DNA of 64,000 nucleotides from Schmidtea polychroa. Its lineage: Eukaryota. Below, piece after piece: positions 36,711 through 63,199 of the stretch. Within the stretch, counting starts at the first letter, position 1, and every line of letters begins with the position of its first letter. The notes below the pieces were generated by a model, which made no database searches, had not been told where the DNA came from, and saw only the letters and a list, made by a program, of their open reading frames with translations. The DNA lies in NCBI GenBank assembly GCA_044892525.1, contig CM097885.1:4342001-4406000 (forward strand), given 5' to 3'. The position numbers and the translations under genes were made by a program.

Positions 36711-36727
36711 AATTATCACTAAAAAAG

Positions 36728-44235: not shown

Positions 44236-45302
44236 TGTTGGGGTTCAATAGAAGCCAAGATAAGGAAATAAAGATAAGTTATGAAAGAAACAAAGATAAA
44301 TTAAAAATAGTATTTAAATATTACCTAAAATAGAAAACAATTACTAATATTAGAATCAAAATATACATAGTAATAAACAATTACTATATTTAGATTTTAA
44401 ATAATAATAGTATTTAAATAAAAATAAGTAGTAAAAATAGTAATAAAATAATTACTATTTATAGAATAGATTAAATAAAAATAATATATATATACAGCAG
44501 TAAATTTTAGTTGAGGGGACCAATAATTTACCAATTACAAACAGGACGAAAGAATTGTTACGAAATTATCGATCAAATAGTAGAAAAATACGGACAAACG
44601 AAATTCATAACGAGAGAGCGACATATTTTGATCCGAACTACAGAACTATTATTGATTCGGAATTTCATTAGTTGTGACTTTACTTAGCTATTACAAAACC
44701 ATTTACGGGTTTATAGCAATTGCGGAAACAATCGTCGGAATGTTTTCTATTTGGAAATCTGGAGTTTTCAATTAAAGAACCAATTTGGTTTTGTGGAATT
44801 TAATTTGCAAATCGCGCAAGCATCACCAGAAACAAGGAAATTCCTCCGTTAATTATTTGGTAAATATTTTTATAGATTTTTCTTAATTAACAAAATTAAA
44901 CTTAAAGGGACTTAGCGTCAGCACACATTTTTGTAGCTGTCTCGCTTTGATTATAATTAAAGTGTTAACAATTTTCTCGGTTGACACTATCGTGGATAAA
45001 ATTCGGTTAATCCCCTATCTTGTTCTTATCACCTATATCGGGCTGTTGGCGCATTTAGGGCCAGCCTTGATCCTTAGAAGTAATCTTTAGGGCGGTTTGT
45101 ATAACCGTTTTTTGTTCTGTAGTGTGCAGCCAGTCTTTTTATTGTAATTAAATCAATTGTTTGTAAAATATTTAGTTTTAAATAAATATTTAAAAGCTTA
45201 TTTGTTATTTATATACAAATTACCTACACGTGTTATAACTAATATTTGTGGAGTCAGATTTACGATTGTGTTAGTTCGAGTATCTACCCATCGAACCTAA
45301 CA
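44236..45302 (+). mobile_element. Probable ~1.07-kb solo LTR-like element
   Basis: Starts TGTTGGGGTTC and ends GAACCTAACA; flanks GTTT / GTTC; A-rich 5' part followed by a TATA-like run. Confidence 0.5.
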
Positions 45303-45601
45303 GTTCTATAGGTTTTTCTAAAAATTATATTACTTTTTCTAAATCTTTTCTATTGATAGTATATATTTAGTGTTGTTTTTCTACTTTTATCGGTATTTAA
45401 TGTTTTAATTTGTTGTTTTAACCCTATGTTTAATTTTTCTATATATTATTTAATTATTGTACTAATTTTATATTTAATTTTAAGTTGTTTTTGATTTTTG
45501 AGGTACTTTTTTGTTGTTTCCTATTGTTTTCTCTTTTTACTTATTTACGTTATTTCATTTTTTATTTTTGTCTTAACTAACAGTCTATAGTATAGACTCT
45601 A

Positions 45602-47075
45602 TACGTTAAGGCTGTCGAAAACCTAAAGAAACGAATTAATTTAAGACTTTGTAATTCAGTCCAAATAGTTTTAACATATTGTTCTAAATCTAATTTCAAA
45701 AGGACTACTGAAATCGATGACGACTTAATATCTGTTCTATTAAGAAAAGATTTAATATGTTTAAATAGACCAAGTTATATTGGTCAATCAGTTTTGGATT
45801 TATCAAACCTTCGTATGTACCAACTTCAGTACATTGATTAAGAAAAATATCGTCTAAAATTTAATTATAAAATTAATATAATTGCTAGTGATACAGATTC
45901 CTTTTTCTTGGAAATTAAAATTTGTAGATTAAATTCTCTTTTACCAGCAATGATAAGGAATAATTTATTAGATACTGTAATGTATTGTAATTCTTTATTT
46001 TTTTTGGTTTTGTTAATTGTATGGTCTGAATGCAAATAACAATTCTGCACGTTGCACGTGGAGAAGGTTTTTTATTTTTTTAAAAAAAAACAAACTATAT
46101 AGTGATAATTTACCATAGTAAATTATCACTATAGAAAATGAATTACAAAAATTAAAAAAGTCGATAAAAAATCTAAATATAAGAAATTGGAATTAAACAG
46201 AAAATAATGCTAGTTTCAAGTTGTGTTACCTATTGACAATCGAATTGAAAATCTCCCCAATCTTGGTACTGTATTATCTATTGACAATCGAATTTATTAC
46301 GGAATCGAATTGAAAATCTCCCCCAATCTTGGTACTTTATTATCTATCGACCATTGAATTAATTACAGAATCTAACGGAATACCATTCCAATCCTTGTAC
46401 TACGTTATCCTTTGACGATCGAATTAATCTCGGAATCAAAGTATTAATTTTCAAAGTTTTGGTTTTGGTTAATAAAAGTTTTGGTATAATAAGTATTATT
46501 GTTGATTATTAATTTTATTTTTAATTTGTTACTATCTTATTACAAAACACAGCCTGCACCCCGATTGTCCCGCCACAAGTTTTAAAGGAGACTCTTTCGG
46601 GCTCATCAATTTTCTCATTAAATAACAATTCATCGAATACCGACCCCCAAACATAACATTTTCATAACATCCACGAAACTAACAAGTACATACTAACTTA
46701 ACAGATACCTCTAATTATGGGCCAACACATTCATTATATTCAAAAAGCCTTGACTCAGTAATAGGGAAATTAAAAGATGAGAGAAAGGGTCTTTGATATA
46801 ATGAATGGATATTTTTAAGACCTAAATGTTATAGCATGAAGGGTAGTAAGGGATGTATGAAAGCGAAGAGGATCACAATGCAAGATACTGGACTAACTCA
46901 TCAGTCGTATCTAAATTGTTATAATAATAATGAGATTTATACGGTACCCAATTTAGAATAACAAGTAAAAAACTTCAATTTTTTAGTATTAAAAATAATA
47001 AGAGGGCTCTAACTAATGCTGACGATAAGCGCAATTGGGTACTTAAAAATAAAAGTTATGCGTTTCGTCATTATA
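45602..47075 (+). pseudogene. Polinton pPolB C-terminal (polymerase) fragment interrupted by a solo LTR
   Basis: ENLKKR, LNRPSYIGQSVLDLS, SDTDS, LDT|SNY, GKLKDE, LRPKCYS, DDKR, AFRHY. Confidence 0.85.
45976..46703 (+). mobile_element. Solo LTR (gypsy A-related) with perfect TSD
   Basis: TGTAATGTATTG...TTAACA; 5-bp TSD GATAC; removing it restores LDTSNY in pPolB. Confidence 0.92.
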
Positions 47076-48486
47076 GAGGGAGTGGTATGATTAAGGCTGA
47101 TGATTCTGATGAAGAAATGTTGCTGTCCATAGTTGATACAGATGAAGATTTGTTATATCATCCTCATTTTCCGAATGATGTTGATGATGGTTATCAATTA
47201 ATAAAATTTGTTTTCACTCTATTTTTAAATGTTACAAAATCTTTATTTTGTTAGTGTTACTTGTGAAATTACACTATTTTTATGTTGTTCTAGTATTTTT
47301 ATGTTACTTGTACACTATTTTTAATATCACACTAATTAGCACACATTTTAATTAAAGAATTAACTCATCTGCAATACTCACATACAAAGGTCACACACGA
47401 AGGTCAATGATTCACACACGCATGTTGTTTGCAATATAAATGCATTAATTTGATTGGTTATACACAAGTATAAAAGAGAGATGAAATGACATGATAGTCA
47501 TTATTTTTAAAAATGCAATCCAAGAAGAACGTTTTTGGTGAGAAAATAGTTTCTAATTTATTGAAAGAAACAAACCAATTGAGAAAATAACTGAGGCGAA
47601 GCATGTCAAGAATGATGTGAAACCAGTACAAATCATAACCATAAGATGTATTTCTTGGTAGATGAAATTCTATATAAATTCTCAAATGCAGTCAAATTGA
47701 TCAAGTCGCAATATTCAAGTTTCATAACACATATAACAAAAGATGTTGCTGCAGTAAATAAAGTGTTGTGGAAAATCAATAAGAATCTATGTTGTAATGG
47801 AAATATATTCATCAACAATCGAAATTCCCGTTTTCATGATGCCTTTGAAGAAATTGAAAATAATAGGGAAAGCTGGTTTGTAAGTATTTCAATACAGGGA
47901 TATAAAATGGATGAAAAAGATGTCATATCACCGATTTGGAGATTAGATAATGCTCGAATTTCTCTGGGATATTAATAAATGTTTAGTTTTTAATACATAT
48001 TTTAATATAATTTTTTAATATCATAATGGGATTTGTTAAGTATTTTTTAAAAGTTGAAAATGTGTGTATGTAAAAGTTGGCTAAAAAGGCATTGTTTAAG
48101 GTGTTATGATTATGAATTTGAAATAAATAATGATGTCATTTTGTAGAGATTTAAATTTTATCTATCGTTGGGCTGAGTCGAAAGCATGGCTAGGATAATA
48201 GGATAAGTAATATGATAAAAGAAAATAAACAAAAAATTTAAAATAAACTGGAATCAAGACACAAAAGAAATAATAAATTAAGATATAAGGGTTAAAACAA
48301 AAAATAAAAATAAGAAAATTAAGATAAGGAAAATAAAATAACGAATAAAATGACGTAAAATTCAGTAAATAATGAGGAAATTAGAGAAACAAATAAAAAA
48401 TATAATAAAAATAAGGAAAATAAGGAAAAATAACCAAAAAACAGAAAAAGTAAATTAAATTAGAAAAACCAAGCGGAACTCAATTC

Positions 48487-48617
48487 TGATTGGTCCGCAC
48501 AGATGAGAAATTAATATATAAGTAAGCACCAAAATCATTAAAATCACTGTTAACTCAAAAATTTTATAGGTAAGCAAATTTCGAAAATATCAGACTGTTA
48601 ACTCAAAAATTTTATAG
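48487..48617 (+). promoter_or_regulatory. E1 promoter (CCAAT, TATA) and 24-bp direct repeat bracketing a putative 48-nt intron
   Basis: ATTGG at 48489, TATATAAG at 48515, ACTGTTAACTCAAAAATTTTATAG at 48546 and 48594, AG|GTAAG donor. Confidence 0.6.
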
Positions 48618-49864
48618 ATCCAGAAACTAGCAGCGACATACAGACAACCGAAATTATTCAAGGAACAATCAGTATTAGGAATCAAGCGGACTATTTTCAA
48701 AAGCGTAACAAATTCATTTCGACTCAGCCCTCATATCGATAAACAATAGTAAGGAGATATTTGGTTTATGTATTTCAAGTAATCATGGATATTTGTTAGA
48801 TAATTAAAATTTCATTGCTTAATGCTAACTTTTTCTTCATTTGATCCTTTTAATAATTTTAATGAGGTTAATGATTTAAATGTTTAAATGCGATTTATAA
48901 CAATAAACGAGATACTCAGAAATTTTTATGGTTTTGATTCATGACATAATATTTTATGATTTAAATTTTTATGAGAAACGTGGAGTTGAGACGTTTCATG
49001 TCATGGTGTGAGGGGCCTTCGGGTGCTCAGCCGGTGGACATGAAACCTTTCAATCACGCAGTTGATTCGGGCCGTAATGTGGGGGCTTCCCCACGGGTCC
49101 GTCACTGAAGGTCACCTAAATTTATTCAGAACAGTAGAAGACAAGTATATAATAAATTCTAAATCGAAAGAAAAGTAATGTTCATGATTCACAGTGATTG
49201 AGGGAGCTACAATCTTTATGCCTACAAGGACTTTACAAACCATAAGCATCATAAGGTGAGTGCGTCAGATAATAACTGCCATGAGACACGTCACTCAAGC
49301 CTGTAGTTCTCAGATTTTTAGATAAAATATTTCGCCAATCAAGATAATTTGAACAGTCAACGGACGATTATAGTAGGCGATTAAAACTCTTTAAAGTCCA
49401 AATTTTAGAAATTTTAAATCGAGTATTACAAATAATAATCAAACTTAAATGGATTTATACATGCAATTCATTAAACCCTCATGTGCGAAAATCATCAAAT
49501 GGGAAAAGGGAAAGTTTTTGGGGAAATACACTGACCTACATATTGTTTTGATCTTAAATGTGTTTTAGTATTTTTAAGGGAAATTTAGAGGCTAATAATT
49601 TTTGCTCAATTACGAAATCTTCATGCTCAATGGTCAGTTATTGCATCCGTCAAGACAATATTACATGTTATTAATTAATTTTTTTTATAAATAATACACA
49701 AAGTAATAACGATTAATTGTCTGGGGGGATTTTCCTTATCCACCTCTCCTGTTTTCTTTTCTTGTTGAATATTCGAGATAGTAAATGAAAATTCGCGTCA
49801 AATTTATGTTTTTGTAAAAGTAGTATATTCTGTTTGTAATAGCTCTTCCTTATAGCCCTCAGAA

Positions 49865-50320
49865 ATGTTACCGAATAAAAGACCTGTGTTACGACCCTGT
49901 TTCTCGTGTTCAGACAAAAATTCCATCATCAAGGATTTGCAGGCCCAGATCGGTCGATACAAAAGGAAAATCGACGAACTGGATACTTCTTCCAAGTCAT
50001 CGCTTCACACCAAGAAGTCCTGTCGAGAATGTGTTGAGGCCGACCTCTCGCCTAAGCGTACAGACGTAATCTTCATCGGGACCAGTAAAGCGCTACCGCC
50101 TACTGCGTCCACCTCTGCAGCGCTCCCGAATATTCTGACGGTATCAAAACCTAAGCGACGGCAATTATCGAGGGCCGAACGCAAGAAAAAACAGCGGGAA
50201 CGAGTGACCGCCAAGCAGAATAAACAATCAACGGGCAACCCGGTTAACATCAGCAGTCCCTCCACAGTGATCGATTTAACAACAGGGATTCCAGGGCGTG
50301 TCATCTCCCTGTTGGCGTAA
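49865..50320 (+). CDS. E1 protein: CxxC + coiled coil + basic tract, unknown function, 151 aa
   Basis: GC-richer ORF; LRPCFSC.DKN shared with the 56732 ORF; KPKRR.L.R shared with the 59800 ORF; CAG lies 2 nt before the ATG; AATAAA at ~50526. Confidence 0.65.
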   Translation: MLPNKRPVLRPCFSCSDKNSIIKDLQAQIGRYKRKIDELDTSSKSSLHTKKSCRECVEADLSPKRTDVIFIGTSKALPPTASTSAALPNILTVSKPKRRQLSRAERKKKQRERVTAKQNKQSTGNPVNISSPSTVIDLTTGIPGRVISLLA

Positions 50321-50715
50321 CCTGGGAGGAGAATGCCTCAGAATTTTTCAATTTAGAAGAGCTCTTAGCTGACACAGAGTGGGAGAAATGAGAACCCCGC
50401 TGTGGAGTGATCTTATCTTTCACAAACTTTTGAACTGAACTATCAGTGTTTTCTTTACCATTCTTTTTATCATCAAAATATATCTGTTGAGTGTAAATTG
50501 TCCGTGTTTTGTGTCATAATCTTGGAATAAATCATTTTTTCGTTCTGATATATATTTACGAATTTTCCATAAATATTTACGAAAGCTTTCGAGATTCGGG
50601 GGGGGTGTTAACCAATTTATATCTATCGTAAGTATAGTGAAAGGTTTGATAATATGAATAGACGGAAGTCCTTCTATCGGCAGTCGAGAAAAGGAAGTCG
50701 AGGCCTCAGTAAGGA

Positions 50716-50860
50716 GTAGTCTTAAGGTAGGGGCTCACCTGCTTACTGGTGTCTCGTCGGCATAGTACATTTCCAACGTGAAGCAATTCACGGGTACTAT
50801 GTTGGAATATAGATTGTGCAGGGTTCTGCTCGGTGTTGGCGACGTAATAGCTAACATATT
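50716..50860 (+). ncRNA. Conserved structured RNA/DNA element, copy 1
   Basis: TCGGCATAGTAC / GTACTATGTTGG stem, 8-nt bulge ATTTCCAA, CGTGAA-GCAA-TTCACG hairpin; covaries with copies 2 and 3. Confidence 0.7.
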
Positions 50861-51975
50861 CGGAATGGACAATCATCTCTTGGACGAGCAGTTAAAATAG
50901 TTGAAGTCAACCGAGTGTTGGGCTAGAACTGATTTCTAGACCCAAACTTCTAATTGTGACTGAAATGTGTAGGTACACAACATGCAAAAAGCAGAAAGTA
51001 TAGTTAAATATTAAAAACTCTACACCAAATAACCAATATTAATTAAAGGAGAAAACAAGAAATTAAATAAAATTATTCAAAAGCAAGAAGTTATGCAAAA
51101 TAGAACTCATAAATAACCAAATAAACATAGAGTTACAAAGAACAGACTCGAATAACTTAAAAGACGGTAAAAACAGTAAAAATTCCAGAAAAACCCAGAA
51201 CATTCCATAAAAATGGCGATGACCATCACAAAAGCCATCTAGAACAATAAAATTTAGAAAAAATAAATAAATTAGTAATAAAAATAAAAAATTTTAAAAA
51301 GAAATTCATAAAACATCAGTTAAAATAAAAATTAAATTAAAATTAACATGGAATGCTCTGGAACCGTTCCAAATCCATCATGGACGTAAAATTAACGAAA
51401 AATAATTAAAAAATAAAAATATAAAAATAAAAACAAAAATTATGGCACAAAAATATCAAAATCGCAAAATAGAAAATTCTGGAATAAAAAGAATTCGAGT
51501 TTGTTTTAATGCACCAATACAAACACGTGTACAAAATAGGTATATATACCGATGCATTTCAGACACAATCAATTACTTTATGCTAATATTTTATTGAAAA
51601 ATTTTCTGAAGCAATTATCAGTGAGTATTTTCGAATTGTATAATGTTATGTTACTTATGCATATAATTATTTTAATGTCAATCATTTTTTCTTTTGCTTT
51701 TGATTAAATTAATTTTAAGAGTTGTTTTCCTATTTTAGTAAATACGACGGATCAGCGGCGTCTGAGCACGTCTCTGATCGGTCCTACATCTAATTATTAA
51801 ATCTCACATCTCATGCATACATGCATTATTATTATTTATAAAACTTTTGTTGTTCGGGTCAGTCGGAGGTCGAACTACTTCATGGTCCTGCCATGGAGTT
51901 ACGTCGAGGAAACCCTCCACCTGACTCTGACCTTTAAATCTGATCCAAATTCCACACCTTTTAAAAAAACTTATC

Positions 51976-52641
51976 ATGGCGAAAAAAATTGAATTATATA
52001 ACATTCGTGAGCACCGGGCAGAAATAGGCCTTAAAGATGTCAACAAATTAATCGAATTTGTCGATTTAGGACCTGGAGCGAAGCCGGCTAACGACCTCAA
52101 ATGCAGCTGGGACAGGCTCAGGTCGCAGTTGCGACAGCCATCTTCTTCGACAGCCAGGTACATCGACGGCCTCACCCGGGGGACGGCACGTCGATCACCC
52201 GATATGGACAAAAGATCCAGTATGCTACTGAGCATTACAAGCATGAATAGTAAGATTAAATTGATACGTTCCGATCTGGAACGTATATATAGCATACTGT
52301 TCGCTACAGAAATGGATCCCAACTATGAACTGGAGTTTGATGAGAATCAGGGAAACCATCAGATGGCCCAACTCAAAGACATGCCGCTACATCGAGAGTG
52401 TCCTGCTACAAACAAACCCCCCCCAACGAAAAGGGGAACGAGAATCGACAGAATGCACAAACGTCCGAATGAAACCCCACAAAGAAACCGGGATCGAAAG
52501 ATCAAGATAAAGGGTAACTCATACGTTCATTTAATTAACAGTGAAAGAAATTTTGTATCAAATGAAAAAAGCCCCATTATGACTATACTTCTAATGAAAA
52601 AAAGGTCAGCCGTAAATGGTCGACTTACAATACAACATTAA
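51976..52641 (+). CDS. Hypothetical protein in E3, 221 aa
   Basis: GC-richer ORF in an AT-rich context; no motif recognised. Confidence 0.4.
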   Translation: MAKKIELYNIREHRAEIGLKDVNKLIEFVDLGPGAKPANDLKCSWDRLRSQLRQPSSSTARYIDGLTRGTARRSPDMDKRSSMLLSITSMNSKIKLIRSDLERIYSILFATEMDPNYELEFDENQGNHQMAQLKDMPLHRECPATNKPPPTKRGTRIDRMHKRPNETPQRNRDRKIKIKGNSYVHLINSERNFVSNEKSPIMTILLMKKRSAVNGRLTIQH

Positions 52642-54249
52642 GGTTTGTCGTAGTGGTTCCAGTGGGGCCACGAAAGCAATATTCATAATTAATTTCAACA
52701 TTTAAAATCACAACAACAGTAATACCCTAAGGCTAATAAAATGAGTAGATCTCAGACCTAAATTTATCACAATTCACACTTGATATGGACGGTTGGATTC
52801 TTCAAAACTAACTCTGCCTATACATTGTCGAACATAGCTTCGGGAAATGACCCAAATAAAATTTCTGATAAAATAAAGATTTTCTTTAACGACTGACTCA
52901 GTAATAAGGACCCGATAGATGTATCGGCAGGGTTTGGATTTTGCATTAAATGAATCATAAAAGAAAAATACAAATAATAGACCCTTCAGAACATAAAATC
53001 CCATCTTAATTTCATCTTGAATTACGTTTATAGTTTTAGTTCCTTTTAAAGGGATGGTTATAGATAAATTCGCCGACAAGATATAAATTCCAAGTAGTTA
53101 CAAGTAAATTTTATTATAAATGTAGAAATAACTTATAACTATATGTCCATTTGAGTTATGCAGATATAAATTACACATTATTATAGATGAAATTTGCTTA
53201 TAAAATAGAAACTACCAATAGTTACATGTAAATTTTATAGAATATAAATAGTTGGATATAAAGTTTTAGTATAAATATGAATTATAAAGATAGAAAATAA
53301 ATTATAATCATGTATCAAGTTGATCATGACAATGTAAATTGTAATTAGTATGGATAAAGGTTGAATGCGAAAAGGTAAATTGTAAATCGTTAGATATAGA
53401 TTATAACGGCTAAATTTTAATTATAAAATCTAAATAGTAATTATAAGATATAAATATCAACCATAAAATCTAAATTCCGATTATGACATGTAAATTATAA
53501 ATATAAATTATAATTATAATCATAACTGATCATAATCAAGGTCTGATTCTAAAAGTATAAAATATAGATAGTTTATCTTTGGAAATATGCTGAGGATTGG
53601 GAATATGAGACCTTGTTAAATTATGGATTAAAAGAACCTATAGATTAAATATAAAGCGTGCCATGATCATCATTATATTTACTATTATGACTATTATTAG
53701 CATTACTATCATTATTAGCATTATTATTGTTATTATTATTGTTGGGCTAAATTTCGGAGTGGAGAAAGCTGGAGCGAATAGAAAAAATAATCCTCGAAAA
53801 ATAAATGAAATAGAAAAAAAAATAAATTACCATCAAAACTCAGTAGCAAATAGGAAGAAACAATAAACTACCAATAAAATAATAAGAATAAGTAACCAAA
53901 CTAAATAAAACCCAATAAATCCCTTAAGACTTGGACATAAAACAAAAAGGAAACGATTTACGACACACAGCAGCTAAAATAAGTAAAATTTAAGAAAATA
54001 AGCGGAAGAATTAGAGAAATAAAATAGAAATAAAACCGTTCTAAAATAAATGCAGATTAATTAAAACAAAAAATTTTTATATTATAGTAAAATAGCCATA
54101 ACTTCGCAAGGAAAAATAGGAAAAGTAATAAAAATAAGAAAATAAATAAAATAATAATAAGAACTAAGTTAAGTCATAAAAATTTAATATAGCATAATAA
54201 AAACATAAAAAATAGTAATAAATAACGAAATTACAAACGAGTCGTGTCC

Positions 54250-54369
54250 TGATTGGACGGAAAATAATATATAAAGAGCGAGAAAATCTGTAGAGTATCA
54301 TTCTAACCCGAAACTCTACAGGTAAAAATTTGTTCAAATTTTAATCATTCTAACCCGAAACTCTACAGG
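54250..54369 (+). promoter_or_regulatory. E2 promoter and 26-bp direct repeat bracketing a putative 47-nt intron
   Basis: TGATTGG at 54250, TATATAAA at 54268, ATCATTCTAACCCGAAACTCTACAGG at 54297 and 54344. Confidence 0.6.
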
Positions 54370-56731
54370 ACTCACTTAAGGACTAATTTTGCAGAGTGCG
54401 AACATTTTCTATAGACAACTAGTTAAGAAACTACGAGACCGAATCTAAGCAGAAAGTGCCGAGGACTTCAACGACATCTAGGATACCGATTAATTACTGT
54501 TCTATTCGACCCAGTTTTTGAACTTCGAGGTATGAAGTCGATTGTCATTATTGTTAATAATTGGTTATGAATATGTAAATTTAATTAATAGTAAAACCAA
54601 TTTTATTCAATAAATTTATTTCGGAAAGAACAGTAGCCTTTTCTTCATGGTACCGGCCACTGTACCATCTGGAGGTTCCAAGTGTGGTGTGGTCGAGCGA
54701 AAATATGCTATAAATGATTTTCCGAGTCTGCATTCCAACAAGGTAATAGACAGCGGACGTTTTCGAAAAAATAATGAAAGTTGGAAGAAATTTTCCGGTA
54801 CGATGGGATATGCGTCGGTATGGCTCGGGAGACATCATACTTGGAGCTCAAATGGTAGGGTCGCCGGGTAAATTTAATTGATTTATTTATTTAATTTTTG
54901 CATTAATGATTTATTTCTGATTTGATTTTTGAATTGATTGGGGAGACGAGTTGATTGGTCTCTCATGACGGTGCAAGAGCGGCGGCAGAGATGAATGCCG
55001 TTCTTGGGTGTGTCATGAGGGGTGAAGAAACTCAGTAGGTCGAAGTCTAGCTGAGGAGCGAAGTTCCCTTCACCGAGCGCGATCAGCCACCTTTGTCGTC
55101 GAGAACATATTCCATAACAAAAAGGGCAGCCACGAGGATGAACCCATAGAGAACTCCAAAAAATTTTCGAATTGAACCTTCTTAGCGCTATATCCAATCG
55201 TCGTCGATTGAGCTTGAAAGTCGGCATCTACTTCGTGCACTCCTCGAAAAAATTGTCACCTGAACATCTGATTGCTAGGGATCTGTAATTGTATGAAAAT
55301 TCCAACGAGGTTCGCAGGGAATGCCATAAAGTCTGAGCTCTTCTAGGATGTACATCGCCAAGGCGTTAGGGACTAGATCCGTTTTCTTAATGATTATCGG
55401 GTTTGAGTAAACTCGTCGCTCAATTTCGACAGAAGGATAAATATTTCTTAATCATTAATCAGAGTAATTACCGTAACATAAAACAAGTTAGTGACGATAT
55501 TGTCTAGTGGTCAGCTGTTCGTCTCCTCGTAGCTGGGAACTGTCTTCCGCAGATGTCTGGAAAAGTTTAGATAAGCTATCTAGCACATGAGTTGCGAGCG
55601 AAGGCCGTCGAGTAAATAAGCCCACTGTTCTTATCTCGATATCAGCATAGTAGTGGAAGACCTAATCAACCCACGCGGTAGTAGGAAATCACTTAGTTTT
55701 ATCTGTCCCGCTGAAGTCAATCAGAGATTTTGGACCAACTATACACGCCCGTATGAAGGCCAACATTTTGAGTAGAGAGTATGTCAATGCACACCTACAC
55801 CGGAATCGGGGAATGACACACAGAATAGCACATAAGCCCGTAGCTACAATCTCTAGCGGAAAGCACTAACTCATCAAATTCGAGGCATCCTTCATTCGTT
55901 ATAAATAATTTCTGTCGCAACGGTTGGTTACTAGAGATATGATAACAACTTCTGTAGAAATAAAGTACTAAAATGATTCGTTACCGTTTTAAAGAATTCA
56001 TCTGATTCATATACAACAAACTAAATTACGTAATCGACGGAAATTACCAGCAGTGTGTAGAGTAACAAATATAGAACAGGACCAAATTAAAAATGGAAGC
56101 ATAATTAGTTGGGTAAATTTGATAAACTAAGTACAGTGACGAATGAGATTCCAAAGAATTAACCCACAACGTGATTTTTAAAAAGGGGATGTTGTTTGAG
56201 ATAAAGTGACAAAATAGATTTTAAAAATAAGATTAATTGTACGATACACTCACGAGAAATCCGAATATTACTATGATGGGGTTGAAATAGATCAAACCGC
56301 AAGTAGCTGAATTTTGTGTTCAAGAATAACAGTAGATAGAACTCCAGACACCAATTAAAGACATAATCGGTTAAAAATATTTTGTTCAATCTTATCAATT
56401 GCATTTTACGTCACTAATAAGATCAAACACACTTTACCCTGTGGGAAAATAGCATTTCAAGTTAAGACTTAAAATGACCAGGCGTAAGAAGAGCAAGTCT
56501 AAAAGGTAAACCGACACTAAATGAATCATCCTGAGGTTTCCCCGATTTTCTTCTCCTAATGAGGCAGGGATTAGGTGGGTCGGTTTGAATGTTTGCGGGG
56601 AAATGAGTATGAATGTCGACAAATGGTTGTGAATGAGTGGAATGATTGATAAGGTGACGGAACTCATATTCAAAATTATAGATTTCGCGTAAATAATCTT
56701 ACTGATTCCCACATAATTTCTTGATTTCCAG

Positions 56732-57361
56732 ATGACTCCAACCAAATCCACCAAGGAACTTCGTCCGTGCTTCTCATGTGCAGATAAAAATGCCGACATA
56801 GCACAACTTCACCTATACATCGGGGCACTAAAGAAGAGAATCGATCTTTATGAGGGTACGTGGTTCTCCCCGCCACAAATGGAAGAGGAGCGGAGTAAGA
56901 TTCTTCGATTAGAACACTGCAGAGACAGCCTCCTGGAGGAGAGCCGCTGTCAAAGGCTGACCATTAAAGCCCAGTCCGAAGCCCTCCACAAGGTTTATAC
57001 GGAGGCGGAACTGGCCAAGCGGGTACGTGAGTTTCCAGTCTTGGAGAGCACAAATGTCTTCCCACTCCATCATCAAGTATCTCAATCAACTATAACCAAC
57101 TGCCAAGGGCATGGTTCATATCTACCACCCGTTCCGGCTCCAACATTATCGGGTTATCAACCATTGGTAGGTGGACCCACCGACCCTATCTTAGCTCCAA
57201 TCCTAGTGGCACCCGTCGTCTCCTCGAGCGCGGGAACTGTCATCTCGCAAACGGAAACGGCCAACCCGGGCCGAGAAAAATCAGAAACGCCGAGATGCGA
57301 TGGCCGCACTCGAAGCGTCACTATCTGCAGCCAAATCCACCATAAAAGAAATATCTTCTAG
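56732..57361 (+). CDS. E2 protein: CxxC + coiled coil with EGTWFSP motif, 209 aa (3' end possibly frameshifted into 57300-57485)
   Basis: ATG directly follows an acceptor-like TTTCCAG; homologous to the 49865 and 59572 ORFs. Confidence 0.65.
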   Translation: MTPTKSTKELRPCFSCADKNADIAQLHLYIGALKKRIDLYEGTWFSPPQMEEERSKILRLEHCRDSLLEESRCQRLTIKAQSEALHKVYTEAELAKRVREFPVLESTNVFPLHHQVSQSTITNCQGHGSYLPPVPAPTLSGYQPLVGGPTDPILAPILVAPVVSSSAGTVISQTETANPGREKSETPRCDGRTRSVTICSQIHHKRNIF

Positions 57362-57805
57362 CCACTCAATTCCCACTAAAGAAATCTTCCGTATAATTCC
57401 GGCAGAAGGCATTAAGTATATTTACAACCAACGATTGCCGGTCGATATCGACGAAATACTTGCGGACGGAGAACCCTTCGGTTAATCGATTCCAGTTTGC
57501 CTTGGTTTTCTGCAGGGTTCCGAAGCGAACTGGAATGTTTATAAATGCTGAACATTTGAATTTGACACAGTTCTTGGTTACTCTGAATGTAGTGATTTGT
57601 TATGGGCTTAATATATCTCTTATTGTTTCTGGTGATTGATTTTAACATGTGTGATATCGAAGTCAGTACGAACAAAAGGATGATGTCGGATGAAGGTAGT
57701 AAAACAAGGTCGTCCCCTTGGACCAGGGTCGGACTGAATTATGTACGAAGAACTGGGTAAGACCTCCTAAGGCGCCATGGAACCCGAAACGAGAAAGGGT
57801 TGGGA

Positions 57806-57985
57806 GTAGTCCTAAGGCAGGGGCTCACCTGCTAACCTTTTCCAACCCGTGTGAGCAGCAGCAACGTGGAACATCACCACGGGCTCATGCGTGGGAATAT
57901 GTACATGGTCATTTGGAGTATGTATGGGAAGTGTCTGAGCGGAACGATGATGCTTGGTATGTGTGATGGTAATGCGTGCATATTT
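57806..57985 (+). ncRNA. Conserved structured element, copy 2
   Basis: CGTGTGAGC / GCTCATGCG stem, bulge AGCAGCAA, CGTGG...CCACG hairpin. Confidence 0.7.
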
Positions 57986-59038
57986 TTCTCTTCCCCACAT
58001 ACGCCAACATTATTACTACTATCATCATTAGTATTATCGTTATTGTTACCCTTATTATCATCATCGTTACAACTATTACCATTATTAATTTTGTTACTAT
58101 TATTATATGATTAGTCTCCGAAAATAAAAATTTGATCAAAATATCGATTTAAGATTTCCCCCCATAACTAAATTTAGCACTAACCCCTTTACTCCAATAG
58201 GAATGATCATAATTCCTAAAATCTAATTTTAGTAACACCCCCTCCCAGAGAAAATGTTGGGATCATTTATCCTAAGCGAGAATATAGTAATCAAGCCCTT
58301 CGGGTTACTAAGAAGTGTACGAACCATCAATACATAAAATAATGTTGTCAATCTCGGTTAAATTATAAAAGTAGATTTTCTTAACATACAAAAGCATTAT
58401 TGCTTGGATCTTCAAATTTTAGCTTTAATAAACTGTAAGCACGAAATATTTATAATACAGGGAACGAATTTACCAGTGGGGAATCGTAGGACGACCCTCT
58501 AAAGCTAAAATAATTCATTTCCATCCAATCTTCTATCAATTATATCTAAAATTTAAAATTTAATGTTAATAGGCAAATTACCCAAAGGAGATTGTACCAC
58601 TCAGGACGAGCGCAACTGGAGGAGAGGTAAATAGACGAGAAGCTAGGCTCGCTACTAGTACCCGTCACCCCAGCGTGCCCGAATTTAGTGGCATAAGAAA
58701 TTTAATGATCTAAAACTTTAAAATTTTATAAATCCTAAATTAGAATTTATAAATTATAATGTAAATTACCACTTAGTGATAAACAAAATTTTATGGATTT
58801 AATTAATTAGTTAAAACAAACGGATTTTGGATAAAATTCCTTTTGCTATTCAGTTGATAAAATATGGAATTTCACTCCATTGTGCCTAAGATTTACCGAT
58901 TCCAGCCATAAAATGAGATTTATTGTTACTTATTTTTCTTCTTAAAGTTCCTGAAGAAAAAACAGGGGGTTAACAAAAGCCTAGGTTTAATTCATAACAA
59001 AATCGGTTTAAAGTGCCCTGATTACTATTTTTGCAGAA

Positions 59039-59404
59039 ATGTCCTACTCTGACAGCAGTAGTAACGAAGAAGCCGATCGACAATTGATCACCCGGCTCCG
59101 TACACGGTACATATGGTACCGTATCCACGATTGGAATCGTGGATTGGATCTCGACAACTTCGGTCCAGTTATCCGAAGCGGCCCAGAACCTGATGCCCCG
59201 GCGTGGGTAAAAACAGAGCCATCGAACGATTCGTTGCAGGAGGCCCGCGACCGAGCGGCCTTCGAGGTAGATGCAGCCCAGATGCGATTGAGGAAAATCG
59301 ACTTGCAAATCCGGGCAAACAAGGAAGGGAAAACCGTAGAGGACCTAGAAGAGGCCGAGTCAACCCCGCGGAAGAGGGGAAGGCCTCGCAAGTGTCCGAC
59401 CTGA
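59039..59404 (+). CDS. E3 small protein with C-terminal AT-hook, 121 aa
   Basis: RKRGRPRK at the C-terminus; acceptor-like TTTTTGCAG 2 nt before the ATG; AATAAA at ~59489. Confidence 0.6.
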   Translation: MSYSDSSSNEEADRQLITRLRTRYIWYRIHDWNRGLDLDNFGPVIRSGPEPDAPAWVKTEPSNDSLQEARDRAAFEVDAAQMRLRKIDLQIRANKEGKTVEDLEEAESTPRKRGRPRKCPT

Positions 59405-59571
59405 CTCATTGTCGATTCTTTTCGTAAATATCATCAGCCACGACTTAATTGAACTTTAATTTTAGTGATGGATTATTTTACTCCTTTTAATAAATTATCT
59501 TATGAATTGCGTGTTTATTATCTAAAAATATCGTTATGTGTAATATTGACCTTATTATATAAATTGAATGA

Positions 59572-60039
59572 GTGGTATGCTACAAGAAGGTAATCATTGA
59601 ATTTTGTCTAGTGTTCAAACTATTTGAAAATCTACGAAAGGACAGAGAAGAAGCCCAAAAACAGGCCGAGGAGCTCCGCGTACGAGTGGACAAGCTCAAA
59701 GGGAGGTGCCGGGAACTCGAAGGCACCTGGTTCAGTCCCGAGGACATGAAAAAGGTAGCGTAGGTCCTCCAACTACAGACTCAAGCCACGCAGGATCAGA
59801 TGGAGATCCGGGCACTGAAGCTCCAACTCCGCGCGTTAGAAACCGAGCGCAATGAGCAAGTGGTTCACGGGGCCGCAATCAGCCAAATCCGGCCGTTGAC
59901 CGTGGAGTTAGCAGCAATATACCCTCCGGCCGTGAAAGAGAAACCCAAAAGAAAGCGTTTGGGACGGAACATCCGGGAAAAATTAAAGAAGGCTAGATTA
60001 GCCGAGTATGAGCGACAAGAAAGGTCGACATCAACGTAA
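59572..60039 (+). pseudogene. E3 coiled-coil EGTWFSP protein with an in-frame TAG at 59761
   Basis: ORFs 59572 and 59800 are in the same frame; EGTWFSP and KPKRKRLGR motifs are shared with the E2 and E1 proteins. Confidence 0.6.
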
Positions 60040-60245
60040 TTTCAGTAAAAAGAACAGTCACTGAGGCCATATACTTTGAATTTTTTTTTGTTGTTTATTG
60101 TCATTGTGTAATTACAAACGTAGTTAAATTAATGTCTGAGGCATGTTGTTTACAAATATTGAGTGACTGAAAATTGGCGTGTGGAAATTTTGGGAAAACA
60201 ATGTTGGTAAGGGACCTGAGGAAAATCGGACACAAACCTTCAACG

Positions 60246-60411
60246 GTAGTCCGTGAACCCATCGAGTGCTCGATAATTATAGTGCCTTGGTGCGCTCACT
60301 TTTTGCGAGCACTTAACCCTTGGTACAGTACCAACGTTGATTACTCAACGGGTACCAAGCGGAAAGACACATGTTGTATTTTGGGTTACGCTGGTAACAG
60401 CACTGAATAAC
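60246..60411 (+). ncRNA. Conserved structured element, copy 3
   Basis: CTTGGTAC / GTACCAAG stem, bulge AGTACCAA, CGTTGA-TTAC-TCAACG hairpin, downstream GCTG-GTAA-CAGC. Confidence 0.7.
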
Positions 60412-60959
60412 AAATATCCGACCACCTGTAACCCACCACGAGTAGCACCCCAGCACTATATATTGTTTGAGTGAAAATATCTCAAGGTGTTTAAAAAATG
60501 TGTAAATTCAAAAATAGTGCACTAAAAATGAAATATCACAATTTTGATTACGGCAGTCTCATTTAAAAGAGAATGAAATATAATCAACGATTTAAAAATA
60601 AAATTTTTTAAAAAAATTAAGTGTCCAAAAATTTTTTTAAAAAGTAGGGGGGGGGTATCAGATGCCCAAAAAAACTTGGTGAGAGTCGAGGATTCCTGTT
60701 GGGCTGGAGTCCACACAACTACCTACTACAACAATTCACTGAATGAATAATTTTGGAGCTGCATGTATTTAAGGTTGAAACCAGAAAAACAGGACGATGT
60801 TAAGAAAAGGTATTTAACTTGTTCAATTTGTAAAGAAAATCAAGTTTCGGTTTTGTTTTTGTTTCTACCGTGTATTGAACAAAAATACCTTTTCTTAACA
60901 TCGTTCAGTTTAATGGACTAAGATTTTTATTTTATAATTTAATTTATTGATTAGTTTTA

Positions 60960-61290
60960 TTCAGGTTTGCCAAATTGGTACTCAATTATTGGGAAACCAA
61001 TTTCTTGGATTTTATTCAATGGATAAAATTCCATATTTGAGAAATAATCAAGCCATAATCGTCAATACTCATACATTTAGTTTAGGAGGTGAACATTGGA
61101 TTGCTATATATGTGAAACCAAACCGAGTATATATTTTTATATGCATTCGATCTCTTTGGATATTATTACCCAAATTTATTAATTAATAAATTACAAACTA
61201 TTGCTAAACTTATTGTATATAATCAAACTCGGTATTAACATCCATTTTCAATTATGTGTGGCCAACATTATCTTGCATGGTTGTTATCAA
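60960..61290 (+). pseudogene. Adenain-like (Polinton) cysteine protease, degenerate
   Basis: FLGFYSMD..IIVNT....GEHWIAIYV, FDLFG, LCGQH; paralogous to the 36728 fragment. Confidence 0.72.
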
Positions 61291-63199
61291 TGTATAATTT
61301 TTTTTAATAAATTTTATTGCCAAAAATGTCGTGTTATTTTATTATTTTATAAATATTATCATTTTTAACGTCTTTGTTATCTTATGTACATATACGCGGT
61401 GAGTGATATACATACCTACAATGTGAGTGTGTTCCTCGATTCTGACTAGTTCGTGAATAATAAACGTCATATATAACTATGTTTTTCATTTTTTCATCAC
61501 TTTTAAACAACATGCAAAATATCTCAAGTGATATCAAGAAAATGATTCGAAGAAACCGTATGGGTAATTTTTTCAAATATGTTTCTATTTTTATTTATAT
61601 TTTAGTCTACAATGATGGAATTAATCGAAATAATGTTTCCGGAATTTATGGTAAATTTATTTTTTTAATTATTATTATTATGATTTTTTAGTAAGTAATG
61701 GAACCGAAAATGATGGGAATAATGCAGTGCCAATCTCGGGTGCAAGAAGCCAAAATGTAAGTTTTTATAAAATTTATCAAAGTAATTTTTATGAAATTAA
61801 TTTTTATGGAAATAATAATGTTGAAAATGTTTTTATGAAGAAAATTACTATATAACCAATTGTCAAGATATTATTAAGAAATTATTATGAAATTATTATG
61901 TTTTATGAAAATATTATTATTACTATTATAATTATTTTTATAGGTTATAAATATCCAACTTTTTGTAACAGTGCTACACATCATGACTGTAACGATATTA
62001 TTGTCATAAATATAAAAGTGTAACATACTTGTTATGTCCTATATACGAAACTCTTGATAAACAACATAATCATTTAACCCAATGTATGCCTTCTAAAAAA
62101 TCAGTTTTCCAAATTGCTTATTAAAAATATATATCAATAACATAAACCACTAATAGGAACACCGAAAAAAGTACTAACTTACAAAATCGATCATTAATGG
62201 AAACAGTCAATAGATTAATTAAAAGACATTTAGAAATTCCCACAAAAAAGATGAAAGAAATAATAATCATTAGTGATGACGACGTTGTAAATAATGAAAC
62301 TATAGCAATTAGTGATGACAACGATATTGTAAATAAAGAAATTGTTGTACCCCAAGTAGTTAGTGGTATAGTCGACGTAGTTTCTGACCGGAATAGTTCC
62401 CATGTAATAGTTAGGATGGACATATCATCCTCGAATTGTGAAGTTCTTTCTGTTCCTGTCGTTCTCATAAAAAAGTTGTTAGAAGTTGTAAATAAAATGA
62501 AATCACTAAAAATTCAATTTTGTATTAGAGTTTGAGAAAAATGATGAATTTCAGTATTTCATAATATCAAACTCTGCTCGTGTTTGGAGCAACACGTTTA
62601 TTGATGATGGTATCTCTCTTTTAGATGAGAAAATTAGTAAGATAGATGAAATTGAACTAGGATTATATCTTGATGAATCTTTATCAGAAAGATATGAATT
62701 ACTTCCATGTCGACTGATATATGTAGAATATAGGAATGATTCAGAAATTCTCAATGATGAATATGTAACAGACGGAGAATTTGACAAATCTCATATAGAT
62801 TTTCTATTTGGTTTATATTTAAAATTATATTCGTTTGTATTGTATTTTCCACTAATTCCGTAGCTATTTTTATATGTTTGTTCTCAAGTTGGTCTTGAAT
62901 AAGATTTACTTGTATTATACTTCGACGGATACGAAGATTCGTAATTTCGAATCATTGAATTGCTTGTTGAGGTACCGTAATTATGCAACATATTATTAAC
63001 ATTCTTCTCCAAATTCGTAAAAAAAAAGTAACACGTTTTTAAATCAATGTTCTGAAATAATATATGTAAATAAGATTGAATTTAGTATCTGGCATTTTGC
63101 TATTCAATGTATAAATGCTTATAAAATAGAGAAATCAACCTTGCCAAATTTATCTATTATTCTAACAATTTATCAAATTTCTAAAAGACAATTTCTGCA

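What the first reader, a model, noticed from the sequence alone, without database searches (positions are those of the whole stretch)
48166..60455. Triple-nested family of multi-kb TG...CA elements with their own spliced genes but no RT, integrase or transposase
Seen: three elements, each bounded by (T/C)GTTGGG...CC(A/C)(A/G/C)CA-type ends with its own 4-bp TSD, all on the + strand and nested inside one another. They are E1 (CTAT, ~2.76 kb), E3 (CGAG, ~5.25 kb) and E2 (TTAT, 4.27 kb). The E1 split is independently supported: joining 50915 to 60443 recreates the terminus seen intact on the minus strand at 39010. E1 and E2 are collinear (A-rich tract, CCAAT, TATA, duplicated start region, hairpin, acceptor-ATG ORF, 3' structure) although most of their sequence has diverged. 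Known: TG...CA ends with short TSDs are the signature of retroviral-type DDE integrases (LTR elements, Ginger). Multi-kb LTRs exist in giant gypsy elements (plant Ogre, planarian Burro), and LTR-encoded genes exist (MMTV sag). Inference: these are either giant solo LTRs that each hold a complete transcription unit (implying an R region of ~2 kb with introns), or a non-autonomous gene-carrying element class mobilised in trans that tends to insert into its own relatives.
Basis: partly seen in the sequence, partly recalled or inferred. Interest (0 to 1): 0.85.

Follow-up and report, generated by a model that had tools for sequence, protein, structure and literature searches.

The report
Nested solo LTRs of giant retrotransposons
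Three multi-kilobase elements stacked inside one another are leftover long terminal repeats of the giant Burro-type retrovirus-like elements already described in planarians, though each repeat carries small conserved genes of its own that deserve a closer look.

Summary
E1 (48166-50915 + 60443-60455), E3 (50916-53739 + 58014-60438) and E2 (53740-58009) are three nested + strand insertions with TG..CA-type ends and 4-bp duplications (CTAT, CGAG, TTAT). Other genomic copies share exactly these boundaries, and paralogues show the empty sites. None encodes RT, integrase or transposase.

They are not a new element class. They are solo LTRs of giant Ty3/gypsy elements matching the published Burro description. 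An E2-like sequence occurs as a 99.4-99.9% identical pair flanking 22 kb of gag, fusion-glycoprotein env, PR-RT-RH-IN, ankyrin and RING/MATH. In some copies E1-, E2- and E3-like LTR ends are followed by one shared primer-binding site, complementary to this genome's tRNA-Pro(UGG).

The more interesting part is that these LTRs carry small ORFs under strong purifying selection (dN/dS 0.07-0.36). Each ORF sits directly behind a pyrimidine-tract-AG and downstream of a conserved CCAAT/TATA/splice-donor module. Splicing and expression could not be tested. In the window all three copies of the ORF shared by the three LTR types are damaged. I found no mention of LTR genes in the Burro texts I could read, but the primary paper and the repeat libraries were not available.

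The parts
48166..50915 (+). E1, solo LTR, first 2750 nt (CGTTGGG.. start; relatives start TGTTGGG)
   Evidence: (L062 start)
60443..60455 (+). E1, last 13 nt (TAGCACCCCAGCA), split off by the E3 insertion
   Evidence: intact copies read CAACCGAG|TAGCACCCCAGCA|flank
48162..48165 (.). TSD CTAT of E1 (second copy at 60456-60459)
   Evidence: empty-site joint 48161->60456
50916..53739 (+). E3, solo LTR, 5' part. TSD CGAG at 50912-15 and 60439-42. Contains a 673-bp segment (51929-52601, ORF-a 51976-52641) that other E3-like copies lack
   Evidence: (joint 51928->52601/2)
58014..60438 (+). E3, solo LTR, 3' part, ending ..AACCCACCA
   Evidence: L064; L079-83
53740..58009 (+). E2, solo LTR, 4270 bp. 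TSD TTAT at 53736-39 and 58010-13. Inserted in the ATT-rich microsatellite of E3
48486..48522 (+). E1 promoter-like module: CTGATTGG (48486-93) and TATATAAG (48515-22)
   Evidence: kept in most of the 10 E1-like copies aligned (L044 reads CTGATCGG, L047 has a 4-nt gap in the TATA)
48546..48617 (+). E1 leader: 24-nt unit (48546-69), GTAAGC donor at 48570, second copy of the unit at 48594-48617. The 48570-48617 stretch is a 48-nt GT..AG unit
49865..50320 (+). E1 LTR ORF (151 aa + stop), a deletion variant of the family ORF. Pyrimidine tract + AG lies 7 nt before the ATG
51514..51626 (+). E3 promoter-like module: CCAAT 51514-18, TATATATA 51541-48. Leader ends ..ATCA at 51620; donor GTGAGT at 51621-26
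   Evidence: donor A|GT(G/A)A kept in 10 of 10 rows (the window and 9 other E3-like copies)
54249..54368 (+). E2 promoter-like module: CTGATTGG 54249-56, TATATAAA 54268-75. 23-nt leader 54299-54321, donor GTAAAA at 54322, second leader copy 54346-68
56732..57485 (+). E2 LTR ORF, homologue of the 253-aa family ORF. Broken here by a frameshift near 57230-57245. Acceptor-like tttcttgatttccag lies directly before the ATG
59039..59404 (+). E3 ORF-b (121 aa, C-terminal KRGRPRK), intact. Acceptor-like ctatttttgcag lies 2 nt before the ATG
   Evidence: (dN/dS 0.09 vs L086)
59612..60039 (+). E3 ORF-c, homologue of the E1/E2 ORF. No ATG of its own; starts right after ttttgtctag. In-frame TAG at 59761-63 in this copy
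   Evidence: (dN/dS 0.07 vs L086)
50713..50743 (+). 31-nt motif GGAGTAGTC.TAAGG.AGGGGCTCACCTGCT shared by E1- and E2-type LTRs (second copy at 57803-57833)

Best explanation
E1, E3 and E2 are three solo long terminal repeats of giant Ty3/gypsy (Burro-type) retrovirus-like elements, inserted successively into one another. E1 came first, E3 landed 13 bp from E1's end, and E2 landed in E3's ATT-rich microsatellite. Each was integrated by a retroviral-type integrase, which explains the TG..CA ends and 4-bp duplication. Each was then reduced to a single LTR by recombination between its two LTRs, which explains the lack of gag-pol. The full elements are about 30 kb and are primed by tRNA-Pro(UGG).

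The LTRs are long because they are organised like a small gene. From 5' to 3' they hold an A-rich tract, a CCAAT box plus TATA box, a short leader with a conserved splice donor, a fast-evolving 1.3-2.4 kb stretch, one or two small ORFs each directly behind a splice-acceptor-like site, and a well-conserved 3' block.

Shown: the boundaries, TSDs and empty sites; the homology to true LTR pairs; the primer-binding site; and purifying selection on the ORFs. Inferred: solo-LTR formation by recombination; use of the promoter, donor and acceptors; and that the ORFs are accessory proteins of the element. These proteins have a helical, coiled-coil-like part plus an arginine/lysine-rich stretch.
For: (1) A complete relative. 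G000:C1:45.84-45.88 Mb (L034, L031-33, L035) has direct repeats of 4.2 and 4.7 kb that are 99.4-99.9% identical. They start TGTTGGGCC and end CGCCAACA, with TTAT on both sides. They are homologous to E2 at both ends: window 53807-54371 at 75% and 56759-58014 at 84% (profile).

(2) Its interior. The 22 kb between the repeats encodes Retrotrans_gag + CCHC, Monjiviricetes_fusion (E 4.6e-73), RVP, RVT_1, RNase H, integrase, ankyrin, and RING + MATH. This is the architecture described for Burro (PMC6431247, section 7). The best 66 of 17,140 candidate pol copies have open frames up to 4,811-4,817 aa, against the 4,873-aa ORF1 reported for Burro1.

(3) Primer-binding site. TGGGGGCTCAGCCGGGATT lies 7-8 nt after the LTR end.
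- Complete element.
- E1-like LTR ends: 2 of 13.
- Upstream members of E3-like same-strand pairs spaced about 30 kb: 5 of 5.
- The 89% E3-like copy L064.
- E2-like pairs: 1 of 2.
- It matches the 3' end + CCA of a tRNA-Pro(UGG) gene of this genome at 21/21, 20/21, 19/20 and 17/20 positions.

(4) Solo state. TSDs are perfect for the 3 window elements, 5 of 5 E2 copies and one E1-like copy (CTAC). Empty sites are seen. No RT/IN is found in 57 ORFs.

(5) The LTR genes.
- The 253-codon ORF is open in 13 of 14 copies covered end to end. It is open in 6 of a further 12 copies, plus one partly covered (L022); 5 are broken. The window's own E2 copy is also broken.
- Nei-Gojobori dN/dS is 0.07-0.36, for example dS 0.39 and dN 0.031.
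- E3 ORF-b has dN/dS 0.09 and ORF-c 0.07 against a copy whose DNA over this stretch is 83% identical.
- The E1, E2 and E3 ORFs are homologous.
- A profile finds 13 proteins at E <= 0.001, best 2.9e-9, in 1.84 billion. In the seven best of the 8 I read, the GTW.SP...ESR.QR motif recurs. In 7 of the 10 scanned against Pfam the matched stretch is fused to unrelated host domains, as in chimeric gene models.

(6) Splice signals.
- The donor A|GT(G/A)A is kept in 10 of 10 aligned E3-type sequences, the window's included, with GTGAGT changing to GTAAGT/GTAAGC in the two most diverged.
- A pyrimidine tract + AG lies 0-7 nt before the start of the ORF in six lineages whose upstream sequence is otherwise unalignable.
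Against: No full-length element with an LTR of the E2 subfamily itself (87-92% identity) was seen. All 8 copies found are single, and none of the 7 whose 3' end was seen is followed by a primer-binding site. The LTR pair I dissected is a sister subfamily.

For those two families the LTR status rests on the primer-binding site and, for E3, on the ~30 kb pairing.

Two apparent pairs misled. The E1-like pair at C1:16.98/17.02 Mb is a 36-kb segmental duplication of a solo LTR. In the E3-like pair L058/L059 the repeat runs 1.1 kb upstream of the LTR start, which is unexplained. One E2-like 'pair' has no primer-binding site (L085).

The polypurine tract before the 3' LTR is poor (..GGAGTGATT).

No RNA evidence exists for the promoter, splicing or polyadenylation. 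No AATAAA follows the ORF in E2, in E3 (after ORF-c) or in the complete element's LTR.
Confidence: 0.92

Rival explanations
1. A separate class of non-autonomous, gene-carrying elements with TG..CA ends. A retroviral-type integrase mobilises them in trans as units of 3-5 kb, and they were never part of a larger element.
For: All 8 copies of the E2 subfamily are single units. The 5 other full-length ones and the window's copy have their own TSDs. 11 of 13 E1-like ends have unrelated flanks.
Against: The same termini, promoter module, ORF and 3' block occur as the two LTRs of a complete 31-kb gag-env-pol element. A tRNA-Pro primer-binding site follows LTR ends in all three families. Single copies with TSDs are exactly what LTR-LTR recombination leaves behind. 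The elements have no terminal direct repeats of their own.
Confidence: 0.03
2. They are solo LTRs, but the ORFs and 'gene-like' signals have no function of their own. Under this reading the open frames are chance or passenger sequence, and the CCAAT/TATA and GT/AG motifs are accidents of an AT-rich genome.
For: No RNA evidence was obtained. The ORFs have no Pfam family. The word-indexed search of 5.8 billion proteins found nothing. The window copies of the shared ORF are all damaged. The structure model is weak (mean pLDDT 59).
Against: dN/dS is 0.07-0.36 with dS up to 0.49. The frame is open in most copies examined. The protein motif recurs in other predicted proteins. An acceptor-like site abuts the start codon in six lineages, and the donor is kept through compensating changes.
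Confidence: 0.1
3. Cut-and-paste DNA transposons of the Ginger type, or others with a retroviral-like DDE enzyme, present here as non-autonomous deletion derivatives.
For: TG..CA ends and 4-bp TSDs.
Against: The terminal inverted repeats are only about 6-7 nt (TGTTGG..CCAACA). No transposase remnant is present. Direct-repeat pairs enclose gag-pol, with a primer-binding site.
Confidence: 0.01

Closest known systems
Burro giant Ty3/gypsy LTR retrotransposons of the planarian Schmidtea mediterranea (Burro1 = GYPSM1; Grohme et al. 2018, Jurka 2007, as summarised in PMC6431247)
   Same: The total is over 30 kb with a 22-kb interior. Gag carries CCHC knuckles. An env-like fusion glycoprotein is in frame between gag and pol, followed by PR-RT-RH-IN, ankyrin, MATH/TRAF and RING. 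Copy number is very high (17,140 pol candidates). The host genome is about 30% GC and 781 Mb, with four chromosome-scale contigs.
   Different: I could not align to the published Burro1-4 or GYPSM1 sequences, so which Burro family each LTR belongs to is unknown. In the element dissected here, MATH/RING is a separate ORF behind pol. The review places MATH_TRAF_C inside the Burro1 polyprotein. The texts I could read do not mention ORFs inside the LTRs.
Ogre elements of legumes (LTRs of 1.9-6.5 kb)
   Same: Multi-kb LTRs that account for much of the element's size (PMC6431247, section 7).
   Different: This is a plant lineage. The extra ORFs described for Ogre lie in the internal region, not in the LTR, according to that section.
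MMTV sag, an ORF wholly inside the U3 of the LTR (recalled, no call)
   Same: A protein-coding gene carried entirely within an LTR, therefore present twice per provirus and once per solo LTR.
   Different: sag lies upstream of the LTR promoter, in U3. Here the ORFs lie downstream of the CCAAT/TATA module, which would place them in R/U5 if that promoter is the real one. There is no sequence similarity.
Accessory genes of complex retroviruses, expressed from multiply spliced mRNAs with acceptors just before the start codon (Rev, Rex, Rem and the like; recalled, no call)
   Same: Small helical proteins with an arginine/lysine-rich stretch, and acceptor-like sites abutting the start codons. One distant homologue gives a sub-threshold REV hit (PF00424, E 0.0013, 19.1 bits against a 22-bit cut-off).
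   Different: No significant similarity and no functional evidence. The location is in the LTR and not between pol and the 3' LTR.

Membership tests
LTR of an LTR retrotransposon (solo LTR) | Ends 5'-TG..CA-3' with short terminal inverted repeats | tested here: met
   E2 TGTTGGG..CCAACA; E3 TGTTGGG..CCACCA; E1 CGTTGGG..CCAGCA, with relatives starting TGTTGGG
LTR of an LTR retrotransposon (solo LTR) | Target-site duplication of 4-6 bp flanking the single LTR | tested here: met
   CTAT, CGAG, TTAT in the window. 5 of 5 E2 copies and 1 E1-like copy have perfect 4-bp TSDs. Empty sites
LTR of an LTR retrotransposon (solo LTR) | The same sequence occurs as a direct-repeat pair enclosing gag-pol | tested here: met
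   Met for the E2 type through a sister subfamily (75-84% identity). For E3 the evidence is only ~30 kb pairing plus a primer-binding site. For E1 it is only a primer-binding site. Those interiors were not fetched
LTR of an LTR retrotransposon (solo LTR) | Primer-binding site complementary to a tRNA 3' end just inside the 5' LTR | tested here: met
   tRNA-Pro(UGG). 17-21 of 20-21 positions match. Found in E1-like 2/13, E3-like 5/5 + L064, E2-like 1/2, and the complete element
LTR of an LTR retrotransposon (solo LTR) | Polypurine tract just before the 3' LTR | tested here: inconclusive
   ..CGGCCCCCGGAGTGATT|TGTTGGG in the complete element, which is not a clear purine run
Burro family (giant planarian gypsy) | Over 30 kb in all; gag with CCHC; in-frame env-like fusion protein; PR-RT-RH-IN; ankyrin, MATH/TRAF and RING extras | tested here: met
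   against PMC6431247 section 7 (read in full)
Burro family (giant planarian gypsy) | Nucleotide identity to the deposited Burro1-4 / GYPSM1 LTR and internal sequences | not testable with these tools
   No Repbase, Dfam or species repeat library is on hand. Grohme et al. 2018 is not held
Non-autonomous LTR derivatives (TRIM/LARD type) | Two terminal direct repeats of their own around a non-coding interior | tested here: not met
   No long direct repeats lie within or at the ends of E1, E2 or E3
DDE cut-and-paste transposon (Ginger-like) | Longer terminal inverted repeats and a transposase or its remnant | tested here: not met
   TIRs of about 6-7 nt only. 0 of 57 ORFs hit a transposase or integrase

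The most novel reading that the evidence does not exclude
Each Burro-type LTR is a self-contained, spliced transcription unit. It has its own CCAAT/TATA promoter, a 20-45 nt leader exon with a conserved donor, a 1.3-2.4 kb intron, and one or two accessory-protein exons. In the E3 type the start codon of ORF-c would be created by the splice itself: the leader ends ..ATCA and the acceptor is followed by TGTTC.., giving A+TG. This would mean a multi-kb R region. It would also mean thousands of solo LTRs could still express retroelement regulatory proteins, possibly a Rev-like RNA-export or nucleic-acid-binding factor, independently of any provirus.
Probability: 0.35. Interest if true: 0.6.

Novelty: already known. 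Interest (0 to 1): 0.3.

Why it matters
The headline of the finding, a new class of mobile element, dissolves. These are solo LTRs of a known giant retroelement family. Nesting is expected in a genome where that family has more than 17,000 pol-like candidates.

What remains of value is anatomical. Burro LTRs are several kb long because they hold protein-coding sequence under strong selection plus what looks like a promoter, leader, intron and exon layout. If confirmed by RNA data, this would be a rare case of whole genes living inside LTRs. It would also bear on how a 30-kb retroelement regulates its RNAs, and on what the many solo LTRs contribute to planarian transcriptomes and gene models. 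Chimeric gene predictions containing this ORF already exist in public protein sets.

The apparent targeting of (ATT)n repeats in one phase also gives a simple reason why these LTRs land in one another.

Tried and rejected
**RNA evidence.** No RNA holder was listed. The four runs laid were contigs whose RNA status is a guess. Among the 15 of 94 joints shown, none was a canonical intron of the proposed kind. Splicing, start sites and poly(A) sites therefore stay untested.

**Poly(A) signals.** AATAAA follows the ORF in E1 (50526) and ORF-b (59489). None follows in E2, after ORF-c, or in the complete element's LTR.

**Known families.**
- Rfam: 0 matches at E <= 0.1 in 44000-64000.
- Pfam: nothing for the LTR ORFs.
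- The word-indexed protein search found nothing at E <= 0.001 among lengths 139-443. Longer and shorter lengths were not searched.

**Structure.** The AlphaFold model of the 253-aa ORF has mean pLDDT 59, with helices at 16-42, 49-101 and 182-213. That is too weak for a fold search, so none was run.

**Misleading pairs.**
- The E1-like pair at C1:16.98/17.02 Mb is a segmental duplication with the same flanks on both sides.
- L085 has no primer-binding site.
- The L058/L059 repeat extends 1.1 kb upstream of the LTR start and is unexplained.
- L065 missed the expected 3' LTR end.

**Other.**
- I guessed that the host repeat around 45.6-47.2 kb is a DNA-polymerase-B (Maverick-like) element. 0 of 8 ORFs gave a Pfam hit, so the guess is dropped.
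- The copies with a single leader unit (L002; L044, L047) could reflect intron loss through RNA. A deletion between the two 23-24 nt direct repeats gives the same product, so this is not evidence of splicing.
- Earlier findings of this scan: none for this genome.
- Literature: Grohme et al. 2018 is not held.
- I read section 7 of PMC6431247 in full, and passages of PMC8532177, PMC11410931 and PMC13238120. None mentions ORFs inside Burro LTRs. The primary paper, its supplements and the Repbase entries, which I could not see, may do so.

Full report
**What is there.**
The window is AT-rich eukaryotic DNA (about 30% GC). It lies at G000:C1:4342001-4406000 of a 781-Mb assembly whose four largest contigs are 272, 190, 145 and 93 Mb. 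E1 starts CGTTGGGCTGAGTC at 48166 and ends ..TAGCACCCCAGCA at 60455, between two CTAT. E3 starts TGTTGGGCTAGAAC at 50916 and ends ..AACCCACCA at 60438, between two CGAG. E2 starts TGTTGGGCTAAATT at 53740 and ends ..CGCCAACA at 58009, between two TTAT. The short start motif alone is not above chance (10 matches with up to 1 mismatch against 11.2 expected), so the test had to come from other copies.

**Boundaries.**
E2 has other copies in the genome (40 of 2678 candidates scored).
- In 5 of 5 other full-length copies the homology stops exactly at 53740 and 58009. Each copy has its own perfect 4-bp duplication: TGAC, AATC, ATGG, CTAA, ATAT.
- All 30 rows with the E2-type 3' end stop at CCAACA and then diverge.
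- A 93-95% identical E3 copy 130 kb away (L056) runs straight through the E2 insertion point, differing only by one ATT unit.
- Uninterrupted E1-like copies read ..GTCAACCGAG TAGCACCCCAGCA and then unrelated flank. This shows both the 13-nt tail of E1 and the single CGAG before E3 arrived.
- Contigs from public runs of the same species join 48161 to 60456 with four shared letters. The flank is itself a repeat, and a paralogue without the nest lies at C1:4.5555-4.5570 Mb. I therefore read these as paralogous empty sites and not as an insertion polymorphism.

None of the 57 ORFs of 60 aa or more in the interval hits RT, integrase or transposase.

**What they are.**
The 3' 1.25 kb of E2 is shared with many copies, some lying in same-strand pairs 18-27 kb apart. 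I fetched one pair with its interior.
- It has direct repeats of 4.2 and 4.7 kb, 99.4-99.9% identical, bounded TGTTGGGCC..CGCCAACA, with TTAT on both sides inside an (ATT)n run.
- The 22 kb between them encodes Retrotrans_gag with zinc knuckles, a viral fusion glycoprotein domain (E 4.6e-73), protease, RT, RNase H, integrase and ankyrin repeats. A RING + MATH protein follows as a separate ORF.
- That is the unusual architecture reported for the Burro elements of the planarian Schmidtea mediterranea: interior up to 25 kb, total over 30 kb, env in frame between gag and pol, and MATH/TRAF, ankyrin and RING extras (PMC6431247, section 7, read in full).
- The pol of this element has 17,140 candidate relatives. 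The 66 scored are 98-100% identical, with open frames up to 4,811-4,817 aa, against the 4,873-aa ORF1 given for Burro1.

That the genome is this planarian or a close relative is my inference from these matches and from the genome's size and composition. No tool named the organism.

The repeat of that element is homologous to E2 at both ends. Identity is 65-75% over the first 750 nt and 78-92% over the last 1270 nt. The middle 2.2 kb is not alignable.

**The primer-binding site.**
Seven nucleotides after the element's 5' LTR lies TGGGGGCTCAGCCGGGATTC.
- The same site, with the same TGATTTT spacer, follows 2 of 13 E1-like LTR ends and 1 of 2 E2-like upstream pair members.
- With the spacer TACAAATT it follows 5 of 5 upstream members of E3-like pairs spaced about 30 kb, and the 89% E3-like copy L064.
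- It is complementary to the last 18 nt plus CCA of a tRNA-Pro(UGG) gene of this genome, at 21/21, 20/21, 19/20 and 17/20 positions.

So all three types are LTRs of related elements that share one primer tRNA. E1, E2 and E3 in the window each have their own TSD and no interior, which makes them solo LTRs. By the logic of nesting the order of arrival was E1, then E3, then E2.

**Weak points.**
- The E2 subfamily proper (87-92% identity) was seen only as 8 single copies. The LTR pair I dissected is a sister subfamily.
- Two apparent pairs were not what they seemed. One is a 36-kb segmental duplication of a solo LTR. In another (L058/L059) the repeated unit begins 1.1 kb before the LTR start, which I cannot explain. 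It may be a tandem LTR-interior-LTR array.
- The polypurine tract is poor.

**Why the LTRs are so long.**
The three types share a layout, although most of their sequence does not align.
- An A-rich tract of 300-550 nt comes first.
- A CCAAT box (CTGATTGG in E1 and E2) sits 12-23 nt before a TATA box. It is kept in most of the 10 E1-like copies, all 6 E2-like copies and, weakened to TCAAT in most, the 9 E3-like copies aligned.
- A splice-donor-like GTAAG/GTGAGT follows about 50-75 nt further on.
- In E3-type copies the donor is kept in 10 of 10 rows, the window's included. It changes from GTGAGT to GTAAGT/GTAAGC in the two most diverged.
- In E1 and E2 a 23-24 nt leader is duplicated around a 47-48 nt GT..AG unit.
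- A variable stretch follows, with a GC-rich hairpin in E1 and E2.
- Then come the ORFs. In six lineages with unalignable upstream sequence, a pyrimidine tract plus AG lies 0-7 nt before the start of the ORF.

**The ORFs are real genes of the element.**
- The 253-codon ORF of the E2/Burro-like LTRs is open in 13 of 14 copies covered end to end. It is open in 6 of 12 further copies, plus one partly covered; 5 are broken. The window's own E2 copy is also broken.
- Its dN/dS is 0.07-0.36, for example dS 0.39 against dN 0.031.
- E1 carries a homologue (BLASTP E 5e-10), and so does E3 (ORF-c, E 2e-5).
- E3 has a second gene, ORF-b, ending in KRGRPRK.
- Against an E3-type copy whose DNA over this stretch is 83% identical, ORF-b has dN/dS 0.09 and ORF-c 0.07.
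- ORF-c has no ATG in either copy. Its first codon would be completed to ATG if the leader, which ends in A in all 10 rows, were spliced to the AG|TG acceptor. This is a hypothesis only.
- The protein is predicted to be helical, with an arginine/lysine-rich helix (low confidence).
- A profile finds 13 proteins at E <= 0.001 among 1.84 billion. The GTW.SP...ESR.QR motif recurs in the seven best of the 8 I read. In 7 of the 10 scanned against Pfam the segment is fused to unrelated host domains, as in chimeric gene models.

In the window itself all three copies of the shared ORF are damaged, as expected of old solo LTRs. ORF-b is intact. ORF-a lies in a 673-bp segment that other E3 copies lack.

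**What could not be shown.**
I could not show whether the promoter, donor and acceptors are used, or where transcripts end. No RNA run on record held the stretch. The runs laid were contigs, and no proposed intron appeared among the joints shown.

**Verdict.**
The finding is a correct and careful observation of an ordinary thing in this genome: nested solo LTRs of a known giant retroelement family. The proposal of a new class is rejected. The gene content of the LTRs is the part worth following up. I found no mention of it in the Burro texts available to me. The primary genome paper, its supplements and the repeat-library entries were out of reach, so I do not claim it is new.

Noticed in passing
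window 53640-53739 / 58010-58113; loci L006, L014, L020/L033, L026: E2-type LTRs seem to target (ATT)n. 5 clear cases out of 22 independent 3' flanks lie in such repeats, all in the same phase (..CCAACA|TTATTATT, TSD TTAT). L025 is ambiguous, and one E1-like copy (L044) lies in (ATA)n. E3 carries an ATT-rich microsatellite inside the LTR, which would explain why E2 landed there.
   Followed up: partly
window 47600-48161 and 60456-61360: The DNA that hosts E1 is itself a repeat (1196 candidates at 84-97% identity). Many hits form inverted pairs 9-25 kb apart, as for an element with long terminal inverted repeats. A paralogue without the nest lies at C1:4.5555-4.5570 Mb. My guess of a Maverick-like element got no Pfam support.
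   Followed up: partly
window 60697-63000: A further TGTTGGGCT.. start lies just downstream of the nest and belongs to another abundant repeat (3299 candidates). Part of it resembles the sequence just upstream of the complete element's 5' LTR.
   Followed up: partly
window 44236 (+), 39010-39035 (-): TGTTGGGGT followed by an A-rich tract at 44236 looks like the start of another LTR of this kind. On the minus strand an LTR-like 3' end (..GCAGCACCCCAACA) stops at 39010.
   Followed up: no
window 20285-31323: Two ordinary-sized Ty3/gypsy elements are nested. The outer LTRs are 20285-20805 and 30802-31323. The inner LTRs are 25034-25278 and 29956-30200 and are 100% identical. Both elements carry gag/RT/RNase H/integrase ORFs. 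hAT transposase ORFs lie at 11207-13867 (-) and 41239-43056 (-).
   Followed up: partly
G000:C1:130.90-130.94 Mb (L087): The tRNA-Pro(UGG) gene that matches the primer-binding site sits in a tandem array with a 475-bp period, about 90 units within the listed part.
   Followed up: partly
window 51929-52601 (ORF-a 51976-52641): A 673-bp segment with a 221-aa ORF is present in this E3 copy but replaced by 11-12 nt in other copies. Only 29 distant relatives (76% identity or less) exist in the genome.
   Followed up: partly
L058/L059 (G000:C1:181.70 and 181.73 Mb); window 36234-36725: In this E3-like pair the repeated unit starts 1.1 kb before the LTR. That stretch includes ~155-bp tandem repeats of a family also present at window 36234-36725. 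It may be a tandem LTR-interior-LTR array. Unexplained.
   Followed up: partly
window 50713-50743 and 57803-57833: A 31-nt motif about 200 nt before the LTR end is kept at 26 or more of 31 positions in E1-, E2- and Burro-like LTRs whose surroundings differ. Its core GGGGCTCA also occurs in the primer-binding site. Function unknown.
   Followed up: no
window 2776-3800 and 7024-7197: A long (AAT)n microsatellite and its inverted counterpart form 171-174 nt arms that are 98-99% complementary.
   Followed up: no
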